Below, piece after piece: positions 12,296 through 64,000 of a stretch of 64,000 bases of DNA. Position 1 is the stretch's first letter. Every line of letters starts with the position of its first letter. The notes below the pieces were generated by a model. The model did not search any database and had not been told where the DNA came from. It worked only from the letters and a program-made list of their open reading frames with translations. Source of the DNA: Chiloscyllium plagiosum. Taxonomy: Eukaryota. The translations under genes were made by a program, and so were the position numbers. The DNA lies in the NCBI RefSeq assembly GCF_004010195.1, contig NC_057719.1, positions 23,006,618 to 23,070,617 on the forward strand. Direction: 5' to 3'.

Positions 12296-12339
12296 ACATT
12301 ATCATTGAGTAGAAACTCAACTGGATTTACCATATAAAC

Positions 12340-13085
12340 ACAATGGCTAAAAGAGCAGGTCAGAGGCTAGTCTGTTGGTGAGTCTCCAGAGCCTGTCTCT
12401 TATATACAAGGAGAAAGTGAGGACTGCAGATGCTACAGATAAGAGCTGATAATGTGTTGCAGGAGGGCTCATGCCCGAAACGTCGATTCTCCTGCTCCTT
12501 GGATGCTGCTTGACCTGCTGCGCTTTTCCAGCAACACATTATCAGCTCTTTATACAAGGCACAAGTCAGGAGTGTGATGGAATACTCCACTCTGCCTGGA
12601 CAAGTGCAGTCAAGAAACTTGACACCATCCAGAACAACAACAGTTAAGAAACTTGACACCATCCAGAACAAAGCAGCTCAATTGATTAGCATCATACCCA
12701 CAAATACCCTCTCCTTCCACCACTGACACCCAGTAGCAGCAGTGTGTAATATATATAGAATGCAAAGTAGAAATTCACCAAAGATCCTCAGGCAACACAT
12801 TCCAAACACATGATCCCTTCCATCTAGAAGGATAAGGGAAGCAGATACATGGGAGGATCACCACCTGCAAGTTCCCCTCCAAGCCACTCACCATCCTGAC
12901 TTGAACATAATTTCTTCAGTATCACTTGGTCAAAATCCTGGAATTCTGTCCTGAGTGGCATTATGGGTCAATCCACAACTATGGACTGCAGCGATTCAAG
13001 ATGGCAGCTCACCACCATCTTCTCAATGGCAACTGGGGACAACAATATATGCCCAGCAACAGCACCCACATCTCATGAGTGAATA
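12340..13085 (+). mobile_element. L2/CR1-like LINE 3' fragment, interrupted by a hairpin insertion
   Basis: tacaaggcacaagtcaggagtgtgatggaatac encodes YKAQVRSVMEY; 3' end gcagctcaccaccatcttctc ... cacatctcatgagtgaata. Confidence 0.8.
12412..12550. mobile_element. Penelope-like terminal fold-back insertion (family A, copy 1)
   Basis: Inverted arms agagctgataatgtgttgc / gcaacacattatcagctct. Partial hammerhead gggctcatgcccGAAACGTC. Flanking duplication tatacaagg at 12403-12411 and 12551-12559. Confidence 0.8.
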
Positions 13086-13241
13086 GATGAAATTACAATA
13101 TTTCCATGTGCAGGTGGACAAGGAATATGTCTGTAAAGTCTTGATGCTGGTACAGCATTAGTTTAGCACTATTTCAACTGAGGCATTTTGTAACCAAGCC
13201 TCATTATTTTAAACTGCCTTAACAATTTTACAGGAACTTAC

Positions 13242-13313
13242 AGGAAGAATTAATTTGTTTCCCGAGCTGAAGTGATTGCGTGTACTAAAGGCAGCATTCT
13301 TCCCATTCACCAT
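13242..13313 (-). CDS. Candidate first coding exon of an unidentified gene (MVNGKNAAFSTRNHFSSGNKLILP)
   Basis: aaaATGg Kozak context at 13313, 24 open codons ending at a phase-0 GTAAGT donor (13241-13236), non-repetitive context, ~75 bp downstream of X-boxes. No downstream exon identified. Confidence 0.35.
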
Positions 13314-13386
13314 TTTCCTATCCCACTGAGTATTTCAATTACACTGGGCTTTCTGAGCCGCTTGTAAAAATACTCAGATTTTTTTA

Positions 13387-13432
13387 GTTGCCATAGTAAC
13401 ACATCAAATTCGTCCTGCTGTTGCATAGAAAC
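13387..13432. promoter_or_regulatory. Pair of RFX X-box motifs
   Basis: GTTGCCATAGTAAC (13387-13400) fits the X-box consensus GTNRCC-N0-3-RGYAAC. GTTGCATAGAAAC (13420-13432) is a second, weaker match. Confidence 0.55.
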
Positions 13433-14699
13433 TGAGCAGAAAATAATACAGGAAGAGCAGAAAGGCAGGCCAAATTATCATCATAAAGCATTAACAAAAA
13501 CTGCAAGTAAAACTTCATCAAGAGACATTAAAAATATAAGAACACATCTGCCCTTTCAAAGAGTTCCTTTAAGCAGGTAACTATATAGTGGATTCTTATT
13601 ATAATTGGAAATCATTTATGTAAGGACCATATATATTTAAGCAAAATATAGTGAATGCTGGAAATCTGAAATTAAAAACTTGTTTCAACCTCATTAGTGA
13701 AGTACAGTGAAAGTGAATGTCATAATCAGACAAAATATCGACTATTGGTCAGGGAACAAGGTTGCCCTTGTTCCCTGAAGTATTGTGGATTGTTTGGGCT
13801 GAAATTAATCATTGTTTTTTCCACCTCAGAGCATTGAAACCAGTCAGCAGGTATAAAAAGACCCTCAACTCCTCTTTGAGTTGCAACATTATGAGAATCT
13901 TCACAGGTTGGAGATGAAATATTGCCCACGTTTACCAAACCAGAACAACATAAACTTCAGCAGACAGGAAATATCCAACCAGCTGCTGTTGAAAGGAGTT
14001 CCTTGTTGTCAGGGTAGAGGAGATGCAGTGAAGGATGCAGAACTGAATACAGGCCAAAACATTTATTTCTCCCTCTCTCAAAGTGGAAAAGCACCCAGTG
14101 ATAGCACAGATTGGGAACAGAAAACATGAGAGAACCAAGAATCAGCAATCTAACTATTATATTTGTTGCTGCTGCTGATGGTCCTAAAAGACAACTAAAC
14201 AACGGTGGTCTCAGGTTAAAGCCTTACTTCTGAATAACACCAAATTACTCAACTGTATTTTTTAAAAATCTTACTTTATACTGGACACAATTCCCTTGTA
14301 ATGTGTCTGCATGTCCTCAAGTGACTACACTGGAGGCCAAATGTTTGTTGCTTTGTCTTCATTAATTTGCTTTGACTAAGCATTAATAAAATTGCTCTTT
14401 TATAAGCACAATAAAACATATTTGTGCCCCCTTATCACTCACAGTAAAAATCAGAAAATTACATTTTAATTGAAAAAAGGTATAATCCACAGGAAAAAGA
14501 GCTTATGCCTTAAGGTGGCTGAAAACTTGGGAGCTGATTCACTCCTCATCTTGTTATAGCAACATGCTTGTGCAAATGCTAGTTTAATGATTTTCTTTGG
14601 TATTGAGACTAACTGGAAAAAGAACAGCTGTAAACTTCGAGTTGTGGATCACCAGGGTAATAGACCATTATGACCTCCTAAGCTTCGTCCTCCAGAATT

Positions 14700-16633: not shown

Positions 16634-16750
16634 AGGAAAGAATGGAAAGAAATAAGAAAGAAAAGAAGGAAAGAATTAAGAAGGAAAAGAAGAAAAAAGG
16701 AAAAGATAGGAAGGAAAGAAGGGATGATTGGAATGAGGAAAAAAGGGAGG
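16634..16750 (+). repeat. Polypurine (GAA/GGAA-rich) low-complexity tract
   Basis: Nearly pure A/G run. Confidence 0.9.
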
Positions 16751-17920: not shown

Positions 17921-18250
17921 GGTCTTTTCCCTGGGGTGGGGAGGCCAGAACTAAACGGCATAGGTTTAGGCTGAGACAGGAAAAATTTAAAAGAGATCCA
18001 AGGGGCAACCTTTTCACACAGTGGGTGGTACGTGTATGGAATGAGCTGCCCAAGGAAGTGGTGGAGGCTGGTACAATTTCAACATTTAAAAAGCGTCTGG
18101 ATGGGTATATGAATATGAAGGGTTTAGAGGGATATAGGCAAAGTGCTGGCAAATGGGGCTAGATTAAGTTAGGGTATTTGGTCGGCACGAACAAATTGGA
18201 CCAAAGGGTCTATTTCTATGCTGTACATCTCTCTGAATCTATGCCTCTAT
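17921..18250 (+). mobile_element. CR1/HER1-type LINE 3' fragment
   Basis: 3' half of ORF 17767-18162 (WNELPKEVVEAGTISTFKKRLD) plus tail. Confidence 0.9.
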
Positions 18251-18254
18251 AAAT

Positions 18255-18345
18255 TAAAATTGCTGGGAAAGCCCAACAGGTCTGGCAGCATCCATGGAGA
18301 GAAAACAGAGCTAACATTATGGATCCAGTGACTCTTCAGAATTCA
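18255..18345 (-). mobile_element. Penelope-like terminal fragment (family C)
   Basis: aaattgctgggaaagcccaacaggtctggcagcatcc ... ctaacatt ... tcttcagaa is homologous to 43365-43460. Confidence 0.7.
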
Positions 18346-19319: not shown

Positions 19320-19420
19320 AGAACTGATGATGAAAGGTTCAACACTTGAAATGTGAACTCTGTTCCTCTCTCCATGAGAGCTGCCAGTCCTGCTGAGTGT
19401 TTCTGGCATTTTTTGTCTTA
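19320..19420 (+). mobile_element. Penelope-like terminal fragment (family C) with decayed hammerhead motif
   Basis: tgatgaaaggttcaacacttgaaatgtgaactctgttcctctctcc ... ctgctgagtgtttc. Confidence 0.65.
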
Positions 19421-19999: not shown

Positions 20000-21880
20000 A
20001 TTTGATTTGATTTGATTTGATTTATTGTCACATGTACCTCAGTATAGTGAAAAGCTTTGTTTACGAGCAGTATAGGCAGATCATAGTAAGCAAGGACATG
20101 GTGGGCGGCACGGTGGCACAGTGGTTAGCACTGCTGCCTCACAGCGCCAGAGACCCGGGTTCAATTCCCGCTTCAGGAGACTGACTGACTGTGTGGAGTT
20201 TGCACATTCTCCCCGTGTCTGTGTGGGTTTTCTCCGGGTGCTCCGGTTTCCTCCCACAGTCCAAAGATGTGCAGGTCAGGTGAATTGGCCATGCTAAATT
20301 GCCAGTAGTGTTAGGTAAGGGGTAGATGTAGGGGTATGGGTGGGTTGCGCTTCGGCGGGTCGGTGTGGACTTGTTGGGCCGAAGGGCCTGTTTTCCACAC
20401 TGTAAGTAATCTAATCTAATCTACAGTTCAGAGGGTGAAAGTAAACTTGGACAGAGGTTTCCAGGTTATACTACACAGGGCGTGCACTAGGCAAGACAAC
20501 ATTAGCAAGATCAACATTATTTGAAGTTAAAGTGTCTATCCATCAGTCTAATAACAGCAGGGAAGAAACTGTTCTTGAACATGTGTGTGTGTGTGTGTTC
20601 AAGCGTCTATATCTTCTGCTTGATGGAAAAGGTTATAGAAGAGCATTACCAGGGCGGGATGGGTCTTTGATGATGTTGGCAGCCTTTCCGCAGCAACAAT
20701 AAGTGTAAATGGAGCCCATGGATGGGCAGTTGGCTTCTGTGATGGTCTGGGCTGTGCACACAACCTTCTGTAGTTTCTTATGGTCCTGAGCTGAGCAGTT
20801 GCTGTACCAGGCCAGTATGCACTTGATAGTATGCTATGGTGCATCTGTAAAAGTTGGTGGGGGTCCTTATGGCCAAACTTTCTGAGCCACCTGAGGAAGA
20901 AGAGGTATTATTGTCTTGAATCTACGTGCAAATTCCAGGACAGTTTGTTGGTTATCATCACTCCTAGGGACTAAATGCTCCTAAACCCTCTCCACCTCGG
21001 CTCCATTGACGAAGATGAGGCATGTTCTCCTCCTTTCTTTCTGAAGTCAATGATCAGTTCTTTCATTTTGCTGACATTGAGAGAGAGGTTGTTATCATTG
21101 CACCCCAATACTAAGCCCTCTATCTTCTTTCTGTATTCTGACACATCTTACCGTGGTGGTGTCATCAGCAAACATGTAGATGGTGTTCATTCAAAATTTA
21201 GCAACGCAGTCATGAGTGTACAGGGAGTACAGTAGAGGACTGAGGGTGCATCCTTGGGAGCTGCTCAGGGTTATTGTGGAGGAGGTGCAGTTATTTAATC
21301 TTCACTGATTGCGGTCTATAGGTCAGGAAGCTATGCATCCAGTTGCAGAGGGCGGAGCCGACACCTAGGTCTCGGTGTTTCGAGGTCAGTCTGGAGTGGT
21401 TATGGTGTTGAACGTGATGCTGTAGTCAATGAGCAGGAGTTTGACGTAGGTGTTCTTGTCCAGATGTTCCAGGGGTGAGTGCAGGTCTAGGGAAATGGTG
21501 TCCATTGTAGGCAAATTGTAGGGATTGAGGCAGGCTGGGAGACTAGAGTTGACATGGACCATTACCGGCCTCTTGAAGCACTTCATGATTATGGAGGTCA
21601 AACTCAGTGGGCGGTAGTCTTTATGGCACGTTGCATGTGTTTTCTTAGGTAATGGGATGATGGTAGTCTTCTTAAAGCAGGTGGGGTCTTTGACTTGTTG
21701 GAGGGAGGGATTGAAGATGTCAATGAATAGCTCCACCAGCGAATCTGCACTGGATCTAAGTGCTCAGTGAGGGACTCTGTCTGGACCCATTGCTTTCCTT
21801 GGCTTGATTCCCAGGAAGACCGATCTGACTTCTGCAGTGGTGACGGAGGGAACAGCTGTGTGAGGCTGTGGGGGCATGTG
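20000..21880 (-). mobile_element. Rex1/Babar-like non-LTR retrotransposon, 5'-truncated
   Basis: ORF 21386-21736 gives TCFKKTTIIPLPKK...DYRPLSLTSIIMKCF...LLIDYSITFNTI (RT domains). (ATTTG)n-ATTTATTGTCACA tail at ~20000-20030. Confidence 0.85.
20103..20423 (+). mobile_element. HE1-type SINE, full length and young
   Basis: Pol III A box TGGCACAGTGG (20114-20124), B box GGTTCAATTCC (20158-20168), LINE-like 3' end gaagggcctgtttt, (AATCT)n tail. CpGs retained. Confidence 0.95.
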
Positions 21881-21978
21881 ATACCACACCTCTGGCAGGT
21901 GGTTATTTTTGACCTACATGCACACGATTGGCAGAAAGGTCTTTTTCTGTGCTGTGGACATCCTATGACTCTGATACT

Positions 21979-22168
21979 GGATTAGTGGTGCTGGAAGAGC
22001 ACAGCAGTTCAGGCAGCATCCGAGGAGCAGTAAAATCGACATTTTGGGCAAAAGCCCTTCATCATACTGTATTTTACTGCTCCTCGGATGCTGCCTGAAC
22101 TGCGGTGCTCTTCCAGCACCACTAATCCAGAATCTGGTTTCCAGCATCTGCTGTCATTATTTTTACCT
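21979..22168. mobile_element. Penelope-like terminal fold-back insertion (family A, copy 2)
   Basis: ~60 bp inverted arms. 15-bp TSD tatgactctgatact at 21964-21978 and 22169-22183. Confidence 0.88.
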
Positions 22169-22904
22169 TATGACTCTGATACTCAAGTGCTGGTGACTAT
22201 AATATTTATATAAGTTAGGAGCCATAACAACAGTCTGTTGAATCTTTCAATACCATGTTACCGATATCTAGTTCTTATATTGTGGAAATTAACGTAAACA
22301 TTGCTGCATCAGGTATAAATGCCCTGCTAAAGGTAAATCACACATCACAGTTTTTAATGTCCATTCCCAGTATTATGTTCTTGTTTTATATAAAGGAGGT
22401 GAAATTTCTTTTGTTACTACCTCTTAGAAACACTACATAAGACATCGGAATGAATTTTCAGTGTTCCTTCTTTACAGTCACTATCTGGGAAGACTTAAAC
22501 TTGCTGTGATTATGTAAGGCCTTGGTGAGACCAGATCTGGGGTGTATTCCTGTGTTGGCAGAACTGATGTATGAAGAGAGAATAGATCAGTTGGAATTTT
22601 ATTCACTGGAGTTTAGAAGAGTGAGGGAAATCTCAGAGAAGCCCATAAAATTCTAACAGAACTAGACAGGGTAAAGACAGGAAGGATGTTCATGATGACT
22701 TGTGGGGTGCAGAACCGGACTGTCACAGTTTAAAGATATGGAGTAGGAATGAGATGAGGGGAAATTTCTTCACTCAGAAGTTGTTAACCCTGTGGAACTC
22801 ATTGCCACACAAAGTGGTTGAAGCCAAGACATTAAATGTTTTCAAGAAGATGATAGATATAGTTCTGAAGGTTAAGAGAATCAAAGTCTACAGGTAGAAA
22901 TGAT

Positions 22905-23030
22905 GTGGATGTGCTGGTGTTGGACTGGGGTGGACCAAGTTAAAAATCACACAACACCAGGTTACAGTCCAACAGGTTTGTTTGGAAGTACAAGCTTTTG
23001 GAACACTGCTCCTTCATCAGACAGCTAGCC
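22905..23030 (-). mobile_element. Penelope-like terminal fragment (family B), left arm
   Basis: Minus strand reads CTGATGA-A-GGAGC-AGT-GTTCC-AAAA-GCTT (23020-22992), a decayed hammerhead, then gtacttccaaacaaacctgttggactgtaacctggtgttgtgtgatttttaact. Confidence 0.78.
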
Positions 23031-23465
23031 TCCCTATCTCTATAACCTCTATCTATCCCTCAAAGCTCCACTATCACTGAAAGACCCACTGCACTCACAG
23101 CAAGGAAGATGGAATGAAGTGAACAGATATGACCAAGCTGTCATTATGGAGATGTGACTGCAGAATGACCACAAGTGGTGAGTGAATATTCAAGGGTTGT
23201 CGGGATTTAGGCAGGATAGGCAAAAGCTAAACAAGATCAAATTATATTGCGAAGGAAGGATGCAGTCAGTGCATTAGTGAGACAACCAATTAAATCTAGA
23301 CTTCAAAATTCAGATTCTATTTGGGTGGAGCTGAGGAACAGTAAGGGGCAGCAATCATTTGCAGAAATTCATTTCTCAGCACCAGTGATGGTAATGTAAA
23401 TGTGGTAACAGTCAGGAAATTGAATGTACTTGTATCAAGGGCAATACAGTAACTGTGTGTGATAG

Positions 23466-23555
23466 TAGCTACCTGACAAAGGAGCAGCTCTCCAAAACGT
23501 GTACTTCCAAATAAACCTGTTGGACTATAACCTGGTGTCGTGTGATTTTTAACTC
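23466..23555 (+). mobile_element. Penelope-like terminal fragment (family B), right arm
   Basis: cctgacaaaggagcagctctccaaaacgtgtacttccaaataaacctgttggactataacctggtgtcgtgtgatttttaact is an inverted copy of 22938-23028. Confidence 0.78.
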
Positions 23556-26505: not shown

Positions 26506-26509
26506 ATGC

Positions 26510-27959: not shown

Positions 27960-28735
27960 TTCTTTTTTGTTCATGCCTGGATGTAGACATAACTGGCTGG
28001 GCCAGCATTTATCAAGGTAAGCTTCTTTCTTGAACAACTGCCATCTATGTGGTTTACACAGACCATACAATAGCATTAGGGAAGGAACTGCGGGATTTTG
28101 ACCCAATGATAGTGAAAGGAATATGCATTTATTTCAAGTCGGGATGGTGAATGGCTGATCAGGCAAACTTGAGATGGCTGCCCTTGTCCTTTTAGATGGA
28201 AGTGGTTGCACTCTTAGAAGGTGCGGTCTTGACAACTTTGGTGGATTTATGCAATGGATCTTGTGAATAGTACACACTGATGCTACTGAGTGCTGGTGGC
28301 GGAGGGAGTGGATGCCTGTGGATGTAGTGGACTGCTTTGTCCTGGATGGTCAAGATTAGAGTGGTGCTGGAAAAGCACAGCAGGTCAGGCAGCACACGAG
28401 GAGCAGGAAAATCGACATTTCAGGCAAAAGCTCTTCATCAGGAATGGCATTTGCCTGAAATGTCGATTTTCCTGCTCCTCGGATACTGCCTGACCTGCTG
28501 TGCTTTTCCAGCACCACTCTAATCTTGACTCTGATCTCCAGCATCTGCAGTCCTCACTTTCACCTTATCCTGGATGGTGACAAGCTTTTTTAATGTTGTT
28601 GGATTTGCACTCATCCAGGCAACTGGTCACACTCTTGACTTGTGCCTTGCAGATGATGGAGAGGCTCTGGGGAATCAGGAGGGGAATTGATTGTTGTAGC
28701 ATTCCTAGTCTCTAACCTGCTCTTGTAGCTACTAT
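27960..28735 (-). mobile_element. L2/CR1-like LINE 3' fragment, interrupted by a hairpin insertion
   Basis: Reverse complement of the 12340-13085 family (cttgacttgtgccttgcagatg). Confidence 0.78.
28351..28567. mobile_element. Penelope-like terminal fold-back insertion (family A, copy 3)
   Basis: ~80 bp inverted arms. 11-bp TSD tcctggatggt at 28340-28350 and 28568-28578. Minus-strand CTGATGA-A-GAGC-TTTT-GCCT-GAAA-TGTC at 28441-28414. Confidence 0.88.
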
Positions 28736-29087
28736 TGGGGAGTTGGAATAACAAACAGTGAGCTGGAATCACCATATAACTGTAGCAACGTTTATGTCTA
28801 CGATTACTACTGTCTACTCGGCAGGTGTTGGAGAATGGGAAACCTCATATCAATGAGCTTGAGTTTGCTTTTTAATGAGGCTGTTAATGCATGCTAATGC
28901 ATGCAAATAGGCCCCTCACTGCTCACTAGAGAGAACCTCATGTTGCCATTCAATACTTAATCAGAAAATGGAACTATTTGTTCTCCCAAATCTTACTCAC
29001 CATTGCCCATGTTGTTCAGGGGCTGGAGAGATTCTGCACATTGGATTGAACACTGTGAGGGAGATCTAGATGATGGGGCCATCTTGG

Positions 29088-29410: not shown

Positions 29411-29683
29411 CTTGTTTGTAATCCGGAACTGTTCTCCACTCAAGTTCATTAGATTTCATCACATTTGGTGGTGCATAATTCATACTTCAGCATTGACTCT
29501 TTCAGAGCTAACACCTACCATGGGATAGGAGGAGGTTGGGGAATGTTCTTGTTCAGAAACTAAATTACTCATCTTGATATTTTTATTTCATCTTTAACAA
29601 ATTTGAATAGAAATGCTAATTATTTCAGTTTTCTCAACAAAATGAGTCTTATAACCTCATGTATAGACAGTGAGCCAGTTGTG

Positions 29684-29874
29684 GATTAGTGGTGCTGGAA
29701 GAGCACAGCAGTTCAGGCAGCATCCAAGGAGCTTCGAAATCGACGTTTCAGGCAAAAGCCCTTCCCGAAACGTCGATTTCGAAGCTCCTTGGATGCTGCC
29801 TGAACTGCTGTGCTCTTCCAGCACCACTAATCCAGAATCTGGTTTCCAGCATCTGCAGTCATTGTTTTTACCTT
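29684..29874. mobile_element. Penelope-like terminal fold-back insertion (family A, copy 4)
   Basis: ~68 bp inverted arms. TSD agtgagccagttgtg (29669-29683) / agtaagccagttgtg (29875-29889). Confidence 0.88.
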
Positions 29875-30937
29875 AGTAAGCCAGTTGTGACTAGTATTCA
29901 TTTACCACCCACCCCCCATAGTGGCCATGTAGCTACTTCCTTAGTTAGGCACTGGATCAGGAATCTATTTGTTTAATTGACTAAAACCCTCTGGCTTCTT
30001 TGTATTTCTAATGATTTAATTAAACTTTGAGATGCCTGATTTTTCTGTGCAACAGAAAGATATGTAAGTGTACGTGATGCTCTTATCAGTTTAATGCTCA
30101 TCAACTGACTGTGGACACAATGCTGATTAAAGTGCCCATCAGGTAGTGTATTGAAAGACTGAATCATTGCTGATAGGGTAGGAATCAGTCTCATGTGGAT
30201 TCTGAGCTTAGGCTAACACTGAGGCAGATGAACTCTCTGCCCAGAAGCTTTTTTCAAATGTGGGGCCTGGATAAAACTTATTGTAATTCAGAAAAGTTGC
30301 ATATAATGGCTTTAGTTTAATTTCAGTGAAATACATTTTGATATGATGGGTTTTATTATTCCTGCAGTATTGCAAAAAAAAACTGTGGGCAATTCACTTC
30401 ATAAAGTGTATAACATATTTTATGTTATAATGTGTATATGGTGGAGGGAAGGGTCTTCAGTATTGTTTGGAGGACATGGGGTTTCTCGGTTTTCCTAATG
30501 CCCAGAGTCTCAAGAAATCTCAATTATTCAGAAAGAAATATTGAGATAAAACTGGGGAGGGAAAAATGTTAGCCAGGATACCAGGTGAATTCTGTCACTC
30601 AGCTGATATTATAACATAGGGCAATTTTGCATCTGCTTGAAAATTTAGTGGCAAGTCTGGTTGGTTTAAACATTCATTCAAACAATTTGTATTTCCAACA
30701 ATGATCCCTCAGTTCTGAACTGGAGTGTCAATTTAGCTGATGCTCTCAAAAGTGGAAGCTGAATTCATGTGGATATGTTTCTGGAGGTGGCAAGGATCTC
30801 AATGCTGGATGGGAAGCTGGTGACAGTCTTGTACTGCTTCTATTCTGGGATACCCCACTCTATTATGGGTCAGTCCGGCTGTTGAGAGGTCACCAATGCT
30901 GGAACTACATGCATCTCATTACCTAAAACCTCCCCCA

Positions 30938-41695: not shown

Positions 41696-41699
41696 AGGA

Positions 41700-43237: not shown

Positions 43238-43582
43238 AGAAACAAAAACAGAAATTGTTTTGGGAACTCAGCTGTTCTGGCAATGTCTTTGGAGAGAAAA
43301 CAAAATTAACGTTTCAAGTCCAGTGACCTTTATTCAGTGCTCATGGAGTCATGGACTCCTAGACAAAAGCAGAAATTGCTAGAAAAGCTCAGCAGGTCTG
43401 GCACCCTCTGTGGAGCGAAATCAGAGTTAACATTTTGGATCGAGTGATCTTTCCTCAGAACAGTTCTCGACCTGAAACGTTAACTCTGATTTCTCTCCAC
43501 AGATGCTGTCAGACCTTTGAAGCTTTCCCAGAAATTTATGTTTTTCTTTCTGATTTACAACATCCACAGTGGTTTATTTTAG
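43238..43582. mobile_element. Penelope-like terminal repeats (family C): a minus-strand copy plus a fold-back copy
   Basis: Arms 43365-43460 and 43468-43545 are inverted. Minus ctgaggaaagatcactcgatccaaaatgttaac and plus gacctGAAACGTTaac are hammerhead remnants. Confidence 0.75.
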
Positions 43583-50670: not shown

Positions 50671-53665
50671 ACCTTCCAATGACACTAGCTCATTGTTTGT
50701 ATTTACAAAGGGGCACAAACCAGTGACAACCTACAGCTGTCATAGCGTCATGTTAGGAATGAAGATCCAATATAGATTTTAAATTACAGGGAGAACAGAA
50801 ATACAATTGTTGTAGAAACTGCATTCTGAATATAACTGCAAAATGCAAGGTGCTAGTAGGTCTTTATTAGGCATTTGAAAGAAATCAGGGAAACTAGAAC
50901 CGGCCTGGCAGAAAATCTTTCTAAATACGAAGTGTGGCAAAGTGGACAGTAATTTACTATAATACTTGTAGTCAAGATAGGAGAAATGGATAAACTGGTT
51001 CATGATAGAACATGGGTTTTGTGACAATATAAAGCAGGAAGTATTAGATCATCTGTCCACTAAACATACAGACTGATATTTTGTACAATTTCCTGAAACT
51101 GCATTATGTTGGCTGAAGTACATGGTGAGTGGTCGGAGCATTATCACCTACTTTGATATTCCGTCATTGGCTAAATTTTACTCCCTCAAGTTTAATGTCA
51201 TTATTAGAATAATTTTTAGAATCAATAATAGATGTGATAATTCAGTTAATATTTAGAATCTAGAGTAAGCAACTTAGCTTTGATAGAGACATAATATTTG
51301 ATACGTTTGGTACATCTTTTTCTTCAAAGTTGAAATATTGGATTGATAAAGGGAATTCAGTACGCAAAAACAATGAACCTTCTTGAAGGTGTTCCATCAA
51401 TTTTCTCACACGAAGTTTGTTAGAAAAATGTAGATGAACGATATTAGAGAACATTAAGCGACTTTGTGAGAAAGTTGGTTAGTGTACAAATGAAAGTAGA
51501 TCATTTTAATTGTCAGATATCTGTAAAAGAAAAGCCATGGCCACAATTAGTCAAGTGTTTGCAGTTTTTATCTGTATAATAGGAACTAAATGACAATGAA
51601 AGTGAGCATAAGGCATCGAATCATCAGGACAAGGTCAAAGAAACTGTGGTAATGTTGGGAATCTTCCAGGGAGTTTTTTCCAGTATTTCAGAAAAGGCTG
51701 AGAAAAAACTCAACAGGGATTTATAAAATTATGAAGACTTATGATTAATGACATAAGAGAAGGCAATTTAATATTTACACGGTCATTCATGAAAGGTTAC
51801 CAATGAACATAAATGGAGTGAGAAGGCAGATTAGACATTTCTTTACACGGTGGGCTGCTGGAGAATGGACTACTTTGCCACAGGGAGTAATTGAATAGTT
51901 GTGACAAGTACATTTTAAGAAAAGAAATGGAGAAATATTTGAAGCAGAGCAAGAAGCACAGCAATGCAGAGAGAAGACAGTTGAATCGATCTAACACATG
52001 ATGAGATGTGTGGCCTCTTTCACGTTGTAATATTCCATGATTCTACTCAGCATAGATTAGTAAATGAACCAGGAACATTTCCGGTTCATTTGGCAATGCC
52101 TCATTTCCAAAGTTTCACTGGTTCACTGAACATTTAATGCAACATTATAATTTTGTTGTTAGCATGAATGTTTCTCCATAGATACTTTGGAACCATGTTA
52201 AAGGTGCCAAATAAATTAAAATTCTTGTTGAAAATCTTGGATAGAGTTGTTTATTCAATAAGGAGTTAGCATGATTGTCTCTGGATTCTTCCCTGTAAAT
52301 TCTCCGTGAACTTAAACAGATAAATAAATAAATGTTAATAGAAAAGAATACAATTCACAAATCAGAGAGAACAAAGGCTGTATGTCATAAACAGAGCCAT
52401 GTGCAGGCATTTGCTAGCATTTTAGCTTTGTTTTTTGCCAGAGGCATCATTGCATGAGAAGGCTGGCTGCAGTTGTATGACTGATGGTTAAGCAATATGT
52501 ATTTAAAAATTTAAACCTGTGCTTCTCGCTCTTCCAAAATAAAATGCCCTGTGGGTTAATAAAGTAGGCAGTGCCAAATATGAATTTAATAGGATTTCTG
52601 CACTGTTAGGATTCTACACCTCCATTCCATTGCAATTTCCATTAATGGAAATAAATGGATTTGTTTAGGGCTAAGTTGTGGATTGGAGGAAGGAGAGGTC
52701 AATGCTTATAAAAATAAAATATTTATAAAATAAGGAATGGACTTTACAGAATTACTAGTTAAACATAAGTGCAAAGTAGTTTACACTTTATATATATGTG
52801 TGTGTATGCAAGTAACATCATTCATAACTAATTCTTTTTAGTTAAAGAGGTGACTGGTAAGCATCTTTGATCATTTTCTTATAATAAGAAAAACTATTTA
52901 GCTAGTAATTTCTTCACATTCATATTAGAACATTATAAGCATACATGACAAGGCAAAATGATGTAGACTTTGAACCTAAGGCTGAATTTATCCTATTCAT
53001 ACTTTTAGAGCTTTTAAAATAACTTCATAAGTGGGGTAATTGAATTTGAATATCGATTATGTTTCAATGGATTGGAAATTTCAACATAATCAATCAGACA
53101 GGAAACATATAATACACACGTGAAAAATAAGGCCTAATGCATTAATTAAAATCTGGAAATTATTTAGGTATTGAAAGACTAATTTGTACATTAGAGATTG
53201 GGTGACTCAGCAATGGAAATACTATTGAACATTATGGGAGATGGTTCAGCTCCCCTTTTGTTGGAGTTAGGCATTGAATGAAGATGTCACTGGCTAGGAC
53301 AACACTAATTGCCAATCATTAATTGTCCTTGAGGAAGTGGTAAACTGCTTTCTTGAACTGTTGCAGGTATAGGTGAAGTGTAGGTGCACCTACAGGGCTG
53401 TTAGAGAGGTCATTTGAAGATCTGTTAGCAGAACCTATCTTTAATTCAGAGATCATAGGCAAAGAAGCCAAATTACGCAGGTTAGTCACGCAAAATGGAA
53501 TCATGATTTGAAAAAAATGCCTAAAGAGGTCAAGAAGAGAGTTTAGCCTCTCACTTGAAGGTAAACTCTGAGTTGTTTTTGGATGTACAATGAGGACAAG
53601 CATCTCAATTTTGTCTGCTCAATAATTTTGCCTCTGCATCCTAATGCTGATTAAAAGAAATGTGT

Positions 53666-54390
53666 CCAAGATGGTGGTGGAGTAGGGCTCATGAGCTGGT
53701 GTTCACTTACTCTGTCCATCTCCTTTCATTTTTCTCTCCTCTCTTTTCACGTTCTTATCTGTTTCTTTTTAACTTGGACAATATCGGCAATGTCCGAGGG
53801 GAAAGCAAACATGGAAACCCAGACTCAGCATGGACTCGATTCTAGGCCTCACTGTGGACTCAAACTCCTGGCTTCAGCATTGACTCAAACTCCTGGTCTC
53901 AGTGTGGAAGCAAACTCCCGGTCTCAGTGTGGACTCCATTCCCAACCTCAGTGTGGACTCGACTCTGAGCCTCAGTGTGAACTTGATTTCCGGCCTCAGT
54001 GTGGACTCAAACTCACGGCCTCAATGCAGCAGCAAACTCCCGGCCTCAATGTGGACTCAAATCTCAACCTCAGTGTGGAGTCAATTCCCATCCTCAGCTT
54101 GGACTCGATTCCCAGCCTCAGTGTGGACTCATCTCCCAGTATTCCCTGCCTCGAGGTGAAGCCCCACACAGTTTGAGATGGAAGGACTGTTAATCTGAAC
54201 TCTTATTTCCCTGTTTTTTCTATTTTATTGCTGGACTTTTAATTTTTTTATTTTTCTACATTTTTCTTTCAGAATTTGTACTTAAGTGTCTGTACCCAGA
54301 TACCTTGATAGGTAAGATTTCACTCTAAATGATGACTTGTAAACTTTTCACTGTACTCATGTGAGTATATGTGACAACAAAAACTAATTC
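53666..54390 (+). mobile_element. Non-autonomous LINE-tailed element with internal minisatellite
   Basis: CCAAGATGGTGG head, pyrimidine tract, tandem array, and tail aaacttttcactgtac...tgtgacaacaaa. Confidence 0.6.
53824..54139 (+). repeat. Minisatellite, 13 units of 24-25 bp (consensus CTCAGTGTGGACTCRAWYYCCCRGC)
   Basis: Units read directly from the sequence. Confidence 0.9.
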
Positions 54391-54556
54391 TTGTAGATCC
54401 CAATGTACTTATTTATGGTAGCCAATGCCTGTCATGTTCTTCTCTAGTTTACTTAAATGGATGAATAATATATAAAGATTGGTGAAACAACATATTTGGA
54501 TCAGTGGTGCTGGAAGAGCACAGCAATTCAGGCAGCATCCGAGGACAGGCAAAATC

Positions 54557-54584
54557 GACGTTTCGGGCAAAAGCCCTTCATCAG
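54557..54584 (-). ncRNA. Minimal type I hammerhead ribozyme motif
   Basis: Minus strand CTGATGA-A-GGGC-TTTT-GCCC-GAAA-CGTC. Confidence 0.7.
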
Positions 54585-54600
54585 GAATAAAGCTTTATTC

Positions 54601-54628
54601 CTGATGAAGGGCTTTTGCCCGAAACGTC
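54601..54628 (+). ncRNA. Minimal type I hammerhead ribozyme motif
   Basis: CTGATGA (54601-07), extra A, stem II GGGC-TTTT-GCCC, GAAA (54621-24), loopless palindromic helix III (ACGT), predicted cleavage after GTC at 54628. Confidence 0.7.
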
Positions 54629-54885
54629 GATTTTTGCCTGTCCTCGGATGCTGCCTGAATTGCTGTGGTCTTCCAGCACCACTGATCCAGAATCTGGTTT
54701 CCAGCATCTGCAGTCATTGTTTTTACCTCGTTGAAACAACATATTTGTCTATCTAAAGAACATAACTATATAAAGTCGTCAGTAGCAGCTAAGTAGCACA
54801 TCTGAGTTCTACCATTACTGCTCTTAGACAGGCTACCGGCAAAGGATGAGTATATCACATTGAGATGTTAATGAATAACAGTCTA

Positions 54886-55061
54886 CAGAGGAACTGAAGG
54901 ATTATTTGAAGGATACAGGTGGAGAGTATTTCACTCGGTTAATTGAATTCTGGATAATCGAATGCCGGATAACATAGTTTAGCCGAACGTCGGGACCTTG
55001 CGAGCTTGCCGGATAATCCGATATTTGGATAATCGAATGCCGGATAATTGAGGTTCCTCTG
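54886..55061. mobile_element. Tc1/mariner-pogo (Tigger-like) MITE
   Basis: TIRs CAGAGGAAC...GTTCCTCTG flanked by TA on both sides. A second copy lies at 62748-62920. Confidence 0.85.
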
Positions 55062-55196
55062 TAGTCGGTTCTGTTCTCATGCAGCCCCATGTTATAAGAA
55101 AATCACATAATAACACCATTTAAGCTCATGGGGCCAGAATCGCAATAATACCAATACATGATTTAAAAGCTTGCGCTTTAGAAACAGTTAGTCAAA

Positions 55197-55338: not shown

Positions 55339-57824
55339 CGGAATTCATCAATTGCGTTACAGCGAATTCGCAATAATGAAGCGCACGTTATAGCAGAATG
55401 ACCTGAAGTTTAACATATGCATCCTATAGGATTTTATACATTGTAATGTAGTGATGCTAAACATCCTTTGATGGTTAGGATATTTCTGATTCATGGGAGT
55501 AGGTTGGATAGCAGGGATCCTGATATAATGTTTCATTTTTCCAACCCTAAGTTTCTGAAAAATGTAACAATTTCTCCACCACAAGGCTTTGCTTTACTTA
55601 AAAATAACAAAGGGAAAAAAAGGACCTTTAGCTGATGGAAAAGAAACCCCTTCTTATTTGATACAAAGGAAACTATATGGCTTCTTCTCTTATATATACA
55701 ATGGATAGCTTTATTTATCAAAACAGTAACCACAGCAACTTATATTTATAGAGTGAGATAAATGCCCCAAGCCATTCACAGCAGCGTTAACAAATAAAAA
55801 ATAAATTGATGCTGAATGAAAATAAACATATGAGGACGGGTTCAAAATCCTGGTCAAAGAGTTAGGTTTTGATGAACTTCTTCAGGAAGAGACAGAGAGA
55901 TAAAGAGGCAGAAGAGTTTGGAGAGGGATTTCCAGTGCTCACGACCTAGGCAGTTAATTGATGGAACAGCACAACAGAGATCTGTGAACACATTTAACTA
56001 TGTACTAAAAGCTGAATCGAGCAGGAACATTAAATTTATGCAGTGAAGAGGTATAGCAGCAAAACTTGTACAAATGTTGTAGAAAATGAAAGCGAGTTCT
56101 TTGGAATAAAATGCCACTGTAGTGGAAGCATGTTTGCACAAAGTTTTCTTTGTTATGGCAATTTATCTGATCTATGACTTACTTCTCTTCAATAGGTCAA
56201 TGTCTTTGTTCAATTTGTGACCAGTGACATGCTATCCAAATGAGTTGATGACTTTTTTTGTAATTACATCTTTATCCCAGAATGTTAAAATAAAATAACC
56301 AAATAATATATACTGGAAAGTATTAATCATCAGTTACGTGCATTTGAGCATCATTACAAGAAATGACGATAATTTACAAATTATGTTCCAATAGTTTCAT
56401 TACAGTTTTAATGGTTACCATTAAAAGCCTACCATTGTGAAATTGTAATTTTTCAAAATAATTGGCTACACACAGTAGCTAACTTTATTTTTAATAAAGT
56501 TGGTTTTAATGGATTGTCTTCCTTCCACTCATACATAACTGATTAAAATTCCAGCCAGCATGTATCTCCTCATAGGTAGGACATCAATCTATGATGACAA
56601 AATGTATTCTCGTCATCTGAAGTAATGTTTGGAGGGTCAAACACTGTCAAGAATAGGGAGCTAATGAATATGTCAGCATCGAATATGGAATGTTCTCAAA
56701 TTAGTACACCATAGTTAAATTTACAGTATATGTTGTACAAATGTTATAAATGATGGAAGATCTGAACATTTGTCATGCCCCAGTGTATAATTAATTTTCA
56801 GTCAATACTTTTAAGTACTGGATACAAAAAAATTATTAAAATGGTTGTTGCAAATCATGTGACCTTTAACTACTTATAGCACCACGTCTATAGTGAATAT
56901 GGGCGTTCAAAGCCATTCAGAGAATTCACATTTGTTAACTTAGAGATGGACCAACCCAAAAGGACTATTGTATTTCAATTTGTCTGCCTCAAATTTCAAT
57001 TTGTTGAAGAAGGAAGTGAGTCAACCCCATGAACCTTCCATTATATTGTAATCTCTGTTCCCCCCAAAATCAGACCGGATGAACCTCAGAGGCATTAAGA
57101 TATAACACAGTGTGTTGAAATCGATGTAAACACAATCCCTTATTTGGAAATGTACTTTGAACTAGTGGAATAAAAACATGGTAGGACAGTCATGCTGTTT
57201 GACATCAGGCAGCCAAAGTACATAACACATCAAAGTTTAAAATTAACTCAAAAACCAACCTCATAGAATTTTGACTATAAGAGACTTCACAATCTGCTGT
57301 GCATCTTCTACTTTACAAGGCCTTCCCTTCAACTTTAAGGACAGAGCTTAAATGAAGGAATCAGGCCTGCCATGTGGGAGACTGGAGATTGTAACTCAGA
57401 ACGTAAGATTATTACTTTCTGTGAAAGTGTATTATCTCTAACTCTAACTACCTCTCTAACTACTATATTATTGTGTGAGAATGAGTTATAAGATGTGTTT
57501 TGAATTTGGGCTAAGTGTGTGGAATAAATAACTTTATTTTAAACTCAGAAAAGCCTGCTGCTGAAAGATTTATTTGGGATCAACACTGGGATTAGGGGTG
57601 GGGTTAGTGCTATCCCAGAACCAAGGAAAAGAAAACACATACCTCTTTCCATGGTGAAGCATTCTGATCATGGGCAATAAGGGGAAGCACACATTCTGTC
57701 CATGATACACTGACATGAAAGCTTGTACATTGATTAGCAATGTGCGAACAATGCAGTCTAACAAAGTGATTTATGCCTTTCATATGAGAGGGCTATACAC
57801 TATCTTCTCAGCACTGAGGAATGG

Positions 57825-57942
57825 TCACAGGACCTGAAATATTACCTGATTTCTCTTCACAGATACTGCCAGACCTGTTGAGCTTTTCCAATAAATTGTT
57901 TCTGTTTCTGATTTAAAGCATCCGCAGTTCGTTCAGTTTTAG
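57825..57942 (+). mobile_element. Penelope-like terminal fragment (family C)
   Basis: ctgaggaatggtcacaggacctgaaatatta (decayed hammerhead) followed by the family C 3' end. Confidence 0.7.
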
Positions 57943-60030: not shown

Positions 60031-62379
60031 AACTAGTTGTGTCATTTAATTCCATATGAATGAGCCAATAAGGCTTCTGTTTATTATCTTATCTGAAACT
60101 CAGTAACTCTGACAATGAAACACTTCTTTATGACTGTAGTGAATTGTCAGCCTGGATTGTTCGGTTAAAACAAAAAAAGACCAAAGGGAGGAACCTCAGT
60201 TATTCATTACAGAAATAGCACAGCAAAATTTCACACATTTCACTGCCTAAAAGCTTAATAATTACCATGCAATTCAGAATGTTATATATTTACAAGCCAC
60301 ATTCACTTGTTTATAGTGGGAGGACTCAGTACTGGTCTGTCCGTACATTGAAAGTGCCTTGCCCTGCACATCCAGCAGAAAACGAAGAGAAAAAGAATGG
60401 AGTAACTTCACATTTTTTGTCATTCCAAAAAACATTTCTAACTCATGTGATGCACCTGAACAAAGCTTTAAGAAGAAGTAACTTCCTAATTGCTAATAAT
60501 TAATTCCAAACTCCAGGTGAAGCCTGTGCTTTTAAAAGATTCTCTTTGAAGACTACAGCTTCTAATTTATTTTGCCTTATGGCTCTCTGTAGAACATTAA
60601 GTTCACACTAGTATTTCTATTAGCTTGCCTCAGAGGCATCACATCACCCCAAAAGTCATTTGTTGCTGCAGTGCAGCAATTTAAAGCTGCCTGACAGTGA
60701 TAATAATTCTATGGTGAAGTGCAAATTCTTCCATCAACAAATCTTTGAAAAAAGACTCATTCGCAGTCTTCCTTTTATGATTAAACATAAATTAAGCATA
60801 AATGACAATAGTAACTTTATCTATTCTGAGTCTGTGACTGCATGCTTGCACTCCTCTTTTGCTTGAAATTTATTTCAATATAACATTGAGGTATGATTTC
60901 AGTGGATTTATCTAAATAGATGAAATATTTTAATATCAGAGTTTTCCCATGTACTAAATGTGTTGATATAAAATATAAGCACTCTGGAATTTGAAAGGGT
61001 ATGGATTTTGAAAAGGGATTTTTTTTATACACAACAATAATGAAAAGTTAGCTCAGTGGATAGCAATATTTGCCTTTGAAGAATGCGAATTCAAGTTAAC
61101 AATGGAGCTTAACTGCACATTGCAGGGCAACACTTCATTGCAGCACTTTGGAAATGTGAGTAGTGTTCTTATTCAGATCAGCTATTGTACCAAAACTTTC
61201 GAATACTGACTTTGGTTGATAATAATAATTCATTTGGACTCATTTAAGAAAGGTTAAATGAGTTTATCCAAATTACTAGTTAACCTTTCCTCCTTTGTTA
61301 AAGCACAGGAAGAGAAAATATATCATCTTAGTGTTTATTAAAGATAATAAATGATTGTGATCTAATAAGATAGTTCAGAATGAAATACAAGAGCAACATG
61401 GCATAATATTGGGCAAACATATCTATCTGATGAATTATTAATATAAAGGCAGGCATATAGTCTAAGTATGGAATAGTTTATAGAATGCAATTAAGATTAT
61501 TTACTAAAGTAATTCTACCTATTCAAAGGAAGAATAGAGCATTGGTTACTTTTGTTCTAGAAGGCATTGATGCTAAATTTAGTGTCTTCACTCATTCTAC
61601 TGATATCATATAGTCTGAGTGTGTAAATAAAGATTCTAACTTTCAGAGAGTAAATACATCTGTACCAGGTAATTAAGGTCCTAATAAGTATGCCTGAACA
61701 AATGTAGTGGCACTTAATCTTATGCACTCAACCTTCATTATCCAAGAATAATGCGTTTTCGGCAGATACTTTAGTTTGCTGTATCCTCTACCACGAATCA
61801 CTAGAAAGGCAAAGACAGAGCAACAACACATGGAGGATTGGTGTCAGCAAACTATCCAAAAAAAACTTTCCCTATTATGACATTATGGAAAATCTGTCAA
61901 GTTACACAAAGTACCAGGGATGATCATTTGGGAAAGTACCACAGGCTTAAGTGTATAACCAAATCATTGTAGGCTGTAAAAACAGTACCATAATTGGAAA
62001 CTAGCAACCCCATCATTGTTAGGTTTAATGGAAGAGAACAAGACAATGAAGAGTCAAAGATAAATTTGCCAGACTAGACAAAGGCAATATTCAGTATAAT
62101 AAGGGAACTGGTTGAGGTTAGCTGGGGACAAAGTTAGATTAATGCAGACACAGATCAATAGAAGTGAATCTTCAACTATGAAATGGAAAGATAAAAAATA
62201 GCAAACTTTTGTGCCCAAGCATTTGAACAATGAATTACTTTTCCGCTTGAATACAGCTATCAATGTGAGATAATAAAGTTTTCAGAGAGATAAGGACAGA
62301 AGAGAAGCTGAATAACTGTTGATGAGAGCTAATAATAGGAGAAAATGGGTAAGTTGTGTAAATGTCCTTTGAGAAATGA

Positions 62380-62600
62380 AAGTGGGTGACCACTTTGCAG
62401 AATGCCTACATTCTGTCCACAAAGATGACCCTGTGTCTGTCACTTCAATACACCACCATGTTCCCTCAATAATATTTCTGTCACAGGCCTGCTGTAATCT
62501 TCCAGCGAGCTTCAGCGCAAGCTTGAAGCACAACATCTCATTTTCCATGTGGGGGACCCTGCAGCCTCAACAGACTCAACACTGAATTCATTGACTTGAG
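62380..62600 (+). mobile_element. Penelope-like GIY-YIG endonuclease C-terminal remnant
   Basis: Frameshifted translation GDHFAECLHSV...CHFNTPPCSLNNISVTGLL*SSSELQRKLEAQHLIFHVGTLQP..LNTEF matches the PLE pattern GDRFxEHLRSV...HFN...RKLEEQHLIFRLGTLxPxGLNxEF. Confidence 0.8.
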
Positions 62601-62747
62601 AACCTGGTCATGTCCTTCCATGTTTATTACCCATCCCCACTCCCTGTCCAATCATCAGGTGGGATACTTTCAGCACAGCTAACCCTTTCTCACCTACTCT
62701 TAGTCTGATCATCACATTATATGGGTTGCTTCCAGCAAAGCCTACTA

Positions 62748-62920
62748 CAGAGGAACCTCAATTATCTGGCATTTGATTATCCGAATGTCGGATTGACCGG
62801 CAAGATCGCAAGGTCCGGATGCTTTGCTAAACTATGTTACCTGGCATTCGATTATCCGGAATTCAATTAACTGAAAAAAATACTCCCCACCCATGTCCTT
62901 TGGATAATCGAGGTTCCTCT
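62748..62920. mobile_element. Tigger-like MITE, inverted relative to 54886-55061
   Basis: TA-CAGAGGAACCTC...GAGGTTCCTCT; internal sequence is the reverse complement of the other copy. Confidence 0.82.
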
Positions 62921-63074
62921 CTTTTTTCTCTTCTGCTGCTCGAGTAGAGCCCTGCCACCAATCTTACTTTATTAGCTGATCCTAAAGGCTTGTCTTATTT
63001 AGCAGTGGTAAGTGTTGAACAACTATAGAGTTTCAAAAAAAAGAGATATTTGCTTTAATATAGTTAATTGTATG

Positions 63075-63261
63075 TGTTGAGAGTGTGTTGCTGGAAAAGC
63101 ACAGCAAGTCAGGCAGAATCTGAGGAGCTGGAAAATCGACGTTTCGGGCCGGAGCCCTTCAGGGTGATTTTCCTGCTCCTCGATTCTGCCTGACTTGCTG
63201 TGCTTTTCCAGCAATACACTCTCAACTATGATCTCCAGTATCTGCAGACCTCACTGTTTCC
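63075..63261. mobile_element. Penelope-like terminal fold-back insertion (family A, copy 6)
   Basis: ~60 bp inverted arms. TSD tagttaattgtatg (63061-63074) / tagttaattgcatg (63262-63275). Confidence 0.88.
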
Positions 63262-64000
63262 TAGTTAATTGCATGACAGCAGTAAGTGTAGACTTAATTA
63301 CAAAGACTATCAGAGATGACACTAAAGTAAGTACAAGAAGAATTGGAGGAAGGTTGCAGAATGAGAGAGATTGAAAAGGTCACAGGTGTCACAGTAAAAC
63401 GTGTTCTGGACATGCCATATGTGCATTCAATGAACAGCTAAACCCAAACCAATCTAGAGTAAAGCTGAGCTGGGAAAATTGGCCATGCCTCTTTTATTGT
63501 ACAAGTGTTTTTTTTCAACTTTAAAGCCTTTTCAAGCAGATCAACCCCAGACATTTTGGAACTTGTGTCTTTATGACCTCCTGAAAATAAAACCAGGACA
63601 GCATAACTTTGTTAAAGGAGTAGCTTCATCATGCAAAGGGAGTGGTAATGTTATGTTTCTGTCCTCATGGATGCTGCCCAGACCTGCTGAGCTTCTCCAA
63701 TACTTTGTTTGTATCAGAGATTACACATTCGTTCCATCCGAACATCAGGCCAGATTGCTTCTTTCATATCCAAAGAGTGTGAGGCATCATCAGATTGAGT
63801 GGAGCTTTATGCAGCTTCTGCATTAACTCTTTTGGAACTATTACATTATGCAGCAGAAGATGATTGTTCAGGGAGCAGACAAACATTCATGTGACTAGAA
63901 ATAGCCAAGATGGCATATTGTTTTCCTGCTACCAGGTGGACAAGGTGAAAAGTCATTGGTATGGTCCATATCAGTATGAGATGAGGTCTTGCAGTGAGAA

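What the first reader, a model, noticed from the sequence alone, without database searches (positions are those of the whole stretch)
12403..63275. Family of short fold-back insertions with 9-16 bp target-site duplications (six in 64 kb)
Seen: six insertions of ~140-235 bp (12412-12550, 21979-22168, 28351-28567, 29684-29874, 54497-54731, 63075-63261). Each is an inverted pair of the same terminal sequence plus a ~30-45 nt unpaired end on one side, and each has a direct duplication (9, 15, 11, 14/15, 16, 13/14 bp). They look like MITEs but lack a fixed TSD length and have variable centres. Established: PLE insertions commonly have an inverted, 5'-truncated terminal repeat. Inference: either extreme truncations of an autonomous PLE or a dedicated non-autonomous, ribozyme-bearing hairpin retroelement. 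About one per 10 kb implies very high copy number and abundant intronic dsRNA or cruciform-forming DNA.
Basis: partly seen in the sequence, partly recalled or inferred. Interest (0 to 1): 0.7.

Follow-up and report, generated by a model that had tools for sequence, protein, structure and literature searches.

The report
Fold-back stumps of Penelope-like retroelement
The six small hairpin insertions are real, and they look like stumps of a very abundant Penelope-like jumping gene of sharks, each built at landing from two head-to-head copies of the element's ribozyme-bearing end, a pattern already described for this class.

Summary
All six insertions are confirmed. Each has inverted arms, a 29-43 nt one-sided tail and a 9-16 bp direct repeat. 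Two repeats are shown to be insertion-made: e1 and e3 sit in two copies of one repeat, and each copy has the other's site unduplicated. The arms carry a minimal type I hammerhead whose helix II covaries across three related families. With the tail and variable duplication, this is the published 'inverted pLTR + tail + TSD' signature of Penelope-like elements (PLEs). All six centres differ, and only 3 of 12 arms keep the ribozyme core, so the hairpin is not the unit that transposes. The tail is on the shorter arm in 5 of 5 asymmetric copies, which argues against snap-back. Best model: both cut target ends prime reverse transcription at two internal sites of the element's RNA. Untailed arms all start within 16 nt at helix I; two tailed arms start at the predicted ribozyme cut. 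A link to a PLE ORF was not shown for this family. The scan noted the same pattern on other pieces of this genome.

The parts
12403..12559 (.). e1: TSD 12403-12411 / 12551-12559; tail 12412-12440 and 24-nt tailed arm 12441-12464 (ribozyme sense on -); long untailed arm 12465-12550 (+). Inserted in repeat copy A.
21964..22183 (.). e2: TSD 21964-21978 / 22169-22183; untailed arm 21979-22065 (-); about 5-6 nt filler; tailed arm from about 22071, 1 nt after the predicted cut; tail 22129-22168 (+)
28340..28578 (.). e3: TSD 28340-28350 / 28568-28578; untailed arm 28351-28445 (-) with a full core but altered helix II; 4-nt filler; tailed arm 28450-28527; tail 28528-28567 (+). Inserted in repeat copy B.
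29669..29889 (.). e4: TSD 29669-29683 / 29875-29889 (14/15); untailed arm 29684-29763 (-); tailed arm 29764-29832; tail 29833-29874 (+)
54483..54747 (.). e5: TSD 54483-54498 / 54732-54747; arms 54498-54592 (-) and 54593-54688 (+) meeting in a perfect palindrome; tail 54689-54731
54597..54632 (+). Minimal type I hammerhead motif: helix I 5' strand from 54597, core from 54601, predicted cut after 54628. Mirror copy on - with core from 54584.
63061..63275 (.). e6: TSD 63061-63074 / 63262-63275 (13/14); untailed arm 63075-63162 (-); 3-nt filler; tailed arm 63166-63226 starting exactly after the predicted cut; tail 63227-63261 (+)
12320..12860 (+). Host repeat copy A (LINE-like by recalled resemblance). 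Holds e1 and supplies the empty paralogous site for e3 (single copy at 12658-12668).
28150..28760 (-). Host repeat copy B. Holds e3 and supplies the empty paralogous site for e1.
62375..62600 (+). Degraded remnant resembling the C-terminal part of a PLE GIY-YIG endonuclease; not shown to belong to this family
   Evidence: Pfam silent

Best explanation
The six are dead-on-arrival insertions of the terminal module (pseudo-LTR with minimal hammerhead, plus tail) of an endonuclease-positive Penelope-like retroelement of carpet sharks. The fold-back shape is made anew at each insertion. Step 1: a staggered double cut 9-16 nt apart (the duplication is shown; the enzyme is inferred). Step 2: each freed 3' end primes reverse transcription on element RNA, one at internal site 1 (no tail) and one at site 2, 29-43 nt further 3' (tail). 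This is inferred from the anatomy and from the in vitro behaviour of the anole PLE. Step 3: the site-1 cDNA runs to a boundary at the 5' edge of hammerhead helix I, most simply the 5' end of the RNA. The site-2 cDNA stops at the same place or earlier, sometimes at the ribozyme cut (positions shown, cause inferred). Step 4: the two cDNA ends are joined head to head by microhomology or short filler, and gap filling makes the TSD (junctions shown, pathway inferred). Confidence is about 0.85 for PLE-end origin with per-insertion assembly, and about 0.6 for the two-ended priming mechanism.
For: Empty paralogous sites for 2 of 6. TSD length varies 9-16. The motif has the min-HHR features of Cervera & de la Pena 2014. 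Helix II is 90% paired, all 4 pairs show double changes, and 0 of 500 shuffles reach the covariation score (13 arms, 3 families). The same architecture (inverted pLTR, one-sided 31-bp tail, 8-10 bp TSD) is in Arkhipova 2013 and Craig 2021. The anole PLE cuts and extends both strands and starts at two internal sites that bound the tail. The tail is on the shorter arm in 5 of 5 asymmetric copies. All six centres differ. Public contigs show further centres, including a long untailed arm joined to tail only (54582->54693). Untailed arms start at -8 to +7 of the core (P about 0.0015 under a uniform -8..+70 null). 266-317 contigs per DNA run leave the reference at 54588/54597 into unlike sequence.
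Against: No PLE ORF was linked to this family: no whole genome, no hits in five DNA scans, and element-frame protein searches gave only host gene models. The 5-of-5 tail bias has a two-sided P of 0.06 and also follows if cDNA length is simply capped near 90-120 nt. e5's perfect central palindrome fits self-priming equally well. Helix I is only 53% paired. One joint (54585->54682) has depth 621 against 7-8 for the flank, which could be an amplified fixed centre. The loose-end cluster partly reflects e5's own upstream bases differing from other subfamilies. Empty sites were not found for 4 of 6.
Confidence: 0.72

Rival explanations
1. Same PLE origin, but the inverted arm arises by self-priming or snap-back on one template (Arkhipova 2013 proposed self-priming on an antisense template), not by priming from both target ends.
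For: e5 has a perfect palindromic centre. Arms within an element differ at 12 of 387 columns (3.1%), against 8-14% between e2, e4 and e5. Both arms of e3 share two CpG-type changes. Published proposal.
Against: In a snap-back the first strand must hold both the tail and the central loop. In 5 of 5 asymmetric copies the loop is continuous with the untailed arm. 5 of 6 centres are not palindromes. Shared variants can be subfamily characters: e5's variants are common in other copies.
Confidence: 0.13
2. A non-autonomous short RNA of about 135-140 nt (helix I to tail; SINE- or retrozyme-like) is transcribed from solo copies and mobilised in trans by a PLE. The hairpins are its double insertions.
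For: All 12 arms are 96 nt or shorter and the long ones share one boundary. No shared upstream continuation appears among the 18 of 965 loose-end rows shown. Two related families in the window show a similar boundary.
Against: No tandem arrays of the unit in the window; non-LTR retrozymes are tandem with 150-300 bp units. The same boundary is expected if reverse transcription starts in the 5' pLTR of a full-length transcript. A PLE-endonuclease-like remnant lies in the window.
Confidence: 0.1
3. The hairpin is itself the mobile unit: a MITE or a dedicated hairpin retroelement.
For: Small size, long inverted arms, direct repeats. One high-depth joint.
Against: TSD length is not fixed. One end is a 29-43 nt unpaired tail, so the termini are not inverted repeats. 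All six centres differ. The ribozyme core is missing from 9 of 12 arms, and in e5 it would be locked in the long duplex.
Confidence: 0.05

Closest known systems
Insertion units of canonical EN+ Penelope-like elements with inverted pLTR and tail (Arkhipova et al. 2013, PMC3846280; Craig et al. 2021, PMC8557442)
   Same: Head-to-head inverted terminal repeat, 30-40 nt tail on one end only, variable-length TSD (8-10 bp in rotifer), sometimes a palindrome at the inverted junction.
   Different: Here both halves are under 100 nt and no ORF lies between them; TSDs reach 16 bp; about 1 per 10 kb; 5 of 6 junctions are not palindromic; no ORF-bearing parent was shown.
Poseidon_Ac (PAc) of the green anole (Frangieh et al. 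2024, PMC11167929)
   Same: Hammerhead in the pLTR, two end points separated by the tail, both strands cut and extended, AT-leaning targets (TSDs 64% A+T against 61% for the window, so no real bias here).
   Different: PAc's ORF starts at stem II; the corresponding frame here stops after 18 codons. The paper found no reads ending at the ribozyme cut, whereas 2 of 6 tailed arms here start at or 1 nt from it.
Minimal type I hammerheads of metazoan PLEs (Cervera & de la Pena 2014, PMC4209133)
   Same: Core boxes, extra base between 9 and 10.1, G10.1-C11.1 pair, palindromic 15.2-16.2 with no loop 3. The paper also notes pairs of motifs 100-700 bp apart on opposite strands.
   Different: Helix II is 4 bp and helix I imperfect; the opposite-strand pair is under 30 nt apart in e5; sharks were not named in the parts read.
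L1 twin-priming inversions (recalled; search listing only)
   Same: Both target ends prime on element RNA; junction by microhomology.
   Different: L1 inversions are non-overlapping segments; here both primers copy the same stretch, giving a palindrome.
MITEs / non-LTR retrozymes (Goubert 2022, PMC8969392; review PMC7761336)
   Same: Short, non-coding, high copy; retrozymes carry type I hammerheads and may use PLE enzymes.
   Different: No fixed TSD or matched terminal inverted repeats; no tandem monomers; ribozyme usually cut off.

Membership tests
EN+ Penelope-like element | Single ORF with telomerase-like RT and GIY-YIG endonuclease bounded by these repeats | tested here: inconclusive
   No ORF in the six. 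Scans and element-frame searches gave no link. An endonuclease-like remnant at 62375-62600 is not joined to this family.
EN+ Penelope-like element | Minimal hammerhead motif in the terminal repeat | tested here: met
   full core in 3 of 12 arms, partial in most others; Rfam found no hammerhead family at E<=5
EN+ Penelope-like element | Adjacent inverted 5'-truncated copy, head to head | tested here: met
   6 of 6
EN+ Penelope-like element | 30-40 nt tail at one end only | tested here: met
   29-43 nt, 6 of 6
EN+ Penelope-like element | Variable-length TSD created on insertion | tested here: met
   9-16 bp; empty paralogous sites for 2 of 6
EN+ Penelope-like element | Partial tandem (direct pLTRs) in full-length copies; clade placement by RT | not testable with these tools
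   no full-length copy available
Minimal hammerhead ribozyme | Self-cleavage as a dimer or with protein help | not testable with these tools
   Bench test. Plain cofolding of two e5 motifs did not give the dimeric ribozyme as its lowest-energy form.
MITE | Fixed-length TSD | tested here: not met
   9, 15, 11, 15, 16, 14
MITE | Inverted repeats at both termini and a shared internal sequence | tested here: not met
   one-sided tail; six different centres
Non-LTR retrozyme | Head-to-tail 150-300 bp units bounded by canonical hammerheads | tested here: not met
   no such array among 25 tandem-repeat rows; units are inverted
Non-LTR retrozyme | Abundant circular RNA | not testable with these tools
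   the one raw RNA run laid gave no reads and is no test

The most novel reading that the evidence does not exclude
These stumps are a fossil record of a PLE step not yet described. Reverse transcription starts in the pLTR copy at the 5' end of the RNA and runs off after 90-140 nt, like a strong-stop product, from both target ends at once. Uncut RNA gives arms ending at helix I and ribozyme-cut RNA gives arms ending at the cleavage site. If so, on the order of 10^5 shark copies would map the RNA's 5' end and give in vivo evidence that PLE minimal hammerheads cleave.
Probability: 0.3. Interest if true: 0.62.

Novelty: new member of a known kind. Interest (0 to 1): 0.3.

Why it matters
As a class this is known PLE anatomy. 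Its practical value is annotation: these hairpins would be mislabelled as MITEs or microRNA precursors (their best Rfam matches are sub-threshold miRNA models), and related copies are written into predicted shark proteins. Its scientific value is statistical. How PLEs build inverted ends, and whether their minimal hammerheads cut in vivo, are stated as open in the papers read. A family this abundant lets arm lengths, tail side and junction type be counted over very many events.

Tried and rejected
No whole genome is held. Arm and tail patterns found nothing in viral, metagenome (20, 21) or GTDB contigs (22). Endonuclease queries found no locus in viral (93) or GTDB contigs (95). Pfam on the 150 longest of 205 stop-to-stop frames of 62 aa or more showed no PLE domain; the other 55 were not scanned and a whole-window read-through scan was not obtained. 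Rfam gave 9 weak matches, none a hammerhead. Two searches with translated element frames returned only host gene models of Chiloscyllium and Hemiscyllium with element-derived stretches (3 hits each). A word-indexed search with the endonuclease remnant found nothing; the HMMER search found 9, one of them an unrelated bacterial PPR protein. No RNA holder was listed and raw RNA run X22 laid 0 reads: no test of expression. No empty orthologous site appeared among the 15 of 130 joints shown; organism B's coverage of the e5 flanks was too thin to decide. My first pair count had helix II one column off; one search is the corrected one. Joints from 54525 or 54545 were set aside because they are ambiguous on a palindromic reference and sit at e5's subfamily-variant stretch. 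Arm divergence was not used for dating because arm-to-arm conversion cannot be excluded. Literature: ten-term-set searches were limited; none listed a paper describing this shark family. The whale shark repeat library and the Poseidon_Ac file were unreadable, and Repbase/Dfam were not searchable, so it may well be catalogued.
Full report
OBSERVATION. Self-alignment gives stems of 24 bp (e1) to about 95 bp (e5). DNA-fold z-scores are -5 for e1 and -18 to -29 for the other five. The direct repeats are 9/9, 15/15, 11/11, 14/15, 16/16 and 13/14. Only 0.185% of 20,000 random intervals have a flanking repeat of 9 nt or more under the same rule. Each element has one unpaired end of 29-43 nt. A profile of the 12 arms finds no seventh member in the window, only weaker hits to a related family.

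THE DUPLICATIONS ARE INSERTION-MADE. e1 and e3 lie in two copies of one interspersed repeat (12.3-12.9 kb +, 28.15-28.76 kb -; LINE-like by recalled resemblance). Both flanks of e3 map onto copy A and share a single 11-mer at 12658-12668. In copy B, the spacing across e1's site is 18 nt, the same as in copy A with one 9-mer. So 2 of 6 have empty paralogous sites. No empty site was found for the other four. For e5, contigs of another sample of the same species run up to both ends of the element, so the site is filled there too.

THE ARM IS A PLE-TYPE END. On the strand that ends in the tail, e5 reads as a minimal type I hammerhead. It has the core boxes, an extra base before a 4-bp helix II with G10.1-C11.1, and a palindromic helix III with no loop, matching the features in Cervera & de la Pena 2014 (PMC4209133; abstract and parts 1-2 of 4 read). 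The window holds two further families with the same layout. Across 13 arms of the three families, helix II is 90% paired and all 4 pairs show double changes; 0 of 500 shuffles reach the covariation score, and slid controls are lower. The rows are related, so this is not a probability. Helix I is weak (53%). Only 3 of 12 arms keep the whole core. Arkhipova et al. 2013 (PMC3846280; passages and Discussion) describe an inverted pLTR with a one-sided 31-bp tail and 8-10 bp TSDs. Craig et al. 2021 (PMC8557442; passages) give this as general PLE anatomy.

WHAT IS NOT SHOWN. No ORF-bearing parent was tied to this family. Searches with translated element frames returned only Chiloscyllium and Hemiscyllium gene models that contain element-derived stretches, which places the family in carpet sharks. 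A degraded frame at 62375-62600 matched 9 proteins. Four are whale shark gene-model fragments, and P0011 shows two cysteines before a YIG motif, as Craig 2021 describes for PLE endonucleases. Pfam is silent on it. It lies 460 nt upstream of e6, but e6 has its own TSD, so it is not e6's body.

ABUNDANCE. Laying four runs on 54200-54900 placed 29,388, 19,744, 0 and 3,105 records. In X3 the summed depth on a tail bin is 1.9 million against 7-8 on unique flank, a ratio near 2 x 10^5. The tool warns that this is not a copy number; I take it only as agreeing in order of magnitude with 6 per 64 kb.

THE HAIRPIN IS NOT THE MOBILE UNIT. All six centres differ: filler of 3-6 nt (e2, e3, e6), direct or microhomology joins (e1, e4), and a perfect palindrome (e5). 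Even e2, e4 and e5, which are 8-14% apart, share no centre. Among the 15 of 130 joints shown are further centres, including a long untailed arm joined to tail alone (54582->54693). One joint (54585->54682, depth 621) could be an amplified fixed centre and is unexplained.

MECHANISM. Frangieh et al. 2024 (PMC11167929; parts 1-2 of 4 read; supplement 2 held no text) show that an anole PLE cuts and extends both strands and starts at two internal RNA sites that bound the tail. That gives the element directly: one target end primes at site 1, the other at site 2, and the two cDNAs meet head to head. The tail is on the shorter arm in 5 of 5 asymmetric copies (two-sided P 0.06). In those five the central loop is continuous with the untailed arm. 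A snap-back of one cDNA cannot make that, because its first strand would need both loop and tail. It fits one RNA with the site-2 polymerase trailing, or two RNAs with similar run lengths; I cannot separate these. Target bases next to the untailed end match the family's continuation for 0-2 nt in the five copies scored, as expected of target priming. Arms of one element differ at 12 of 387 columns, which fits one template, one subfamily, or later conversion.

THE ENDS ARE NOT RANDOM. Counting from the first core base, untailed arms start at +7, +1, -4, +5, -8 and +4, a 16-nt span (P about 0.0015 under a uniform null). In one search, 266-317 contigs per DNA run leave the reference at helix I (54588/54597) into unlike sequence (agreement 0.32-0.33, median 191-255 nt). 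Depth falls from 192,000 at 54596 to 48,000 at 54594. Part of this is e5's own upstream bases. Six of 8 hits of the second family also begin at profile positions 2-6, though that profile was trimmed there. The simplest cause is the RNA's 5' end, which is inferred. Tailed arms start at about +70, +29, +13, +17, -8 and +28, with the predicted cut after +27. Two of six within 1 nt has P about 0.02 under the same null, noticed after the fact. One contig in table 5c (54586->54641; 12 of 131 rows shown) reads the same way. Against this, Frangieh found no reads ending at the cut and no need for cleavage in vitro.

PLE origin, real TSDs and high copy number stand. A dedicated ribozyme-bearing hairpin element does not. 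Intronic position, dsRNA and cruciforms are untested: no exon was identified and the RNA run was no test.

EARLIER NOTES. Other pieces of this genome drew the same reading. They are unchecked AI notes and add no support. One of them (e1-7858714) drew my attention to the helix I boundary, which I then measured here; the loose-end data came before I read it.

VERDICT. A real and well-supported feature; a new member of a known kind; interest 0.3. The live residue is the non-random ends, which a genome-wide count would settle.

Noticed in passing
window 62375-62600 (+): Degraded remnant resembling the C-terminal part of a PLE GIY-YIG endonuclease, broken by frame changes and a stop, followed by a pyrimidine-rich stretch. 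A second-family arm remnant lies on the same strand at 63639-63719; no join was shown.
   Followed up: partly
window 43238-43551, 18244-18339, 19328-19419, 39753-39843, 57811-57910, 63639-63719: An older, related hammerhead-bearing family: one fold-back copy (43361-43551, candidate 8/9 duplication at 43348/43606) and six single arms.
   Followed up: partly
window 22902-23554: Fold-back copy of a third hammerhead-bearing family whose arms are separated by about 440 bp of unrelated sequence (LINE-like by recalled resemblance); candidate 8/9 duplication at 22892/23566.
   Followed up: partly
window 28351-28527: Both arms of e3 share two CpG-type changes that occur in only about 10-15% of family depth per site; suggests a decayed template or arm-to-arm conversion.
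   Followed up: no
joint 54585->54682: Two contigs with depth 621 against 7-8 for the flank; the letters between resemble the start of the ribozyme fused to the tail region. Possibly an internally deleted, amplified variant.
   Followed up: no
P0001-P0006: Element-derived peptides form the ends or internal parts of predicted Chiloscyllium and Hemiscyllium proteins (FUBP3-like, CEP57-like, PSD-like, H2A-like, LOXL3-like): exonisation or gene-model artefact.
   Followed up: partly
window 54900-55068 and 62741-62909: Two copies, 84% alike and in opposite orientation, of a 170-bp repeat with internal 15-mer repeats; unidentified.
   Followed up: no
window 53818-54139: 24-bp tandem array, about 13 copies, lying in a 173-codon open frame (53655-54173) with no Pfam match.
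   Followed up: no
window 20103-20393 and 32254-32545: Two SINE-like copies 94-97% alike in opposite orientation, among several older ones (5409, 26517, 29095, 45189).
   Followed up: no
window 12607-12671 and 32086-32173: Local tandem duplications of 34 bp and 45 bp inside repeat fragments.
   Followed up: no
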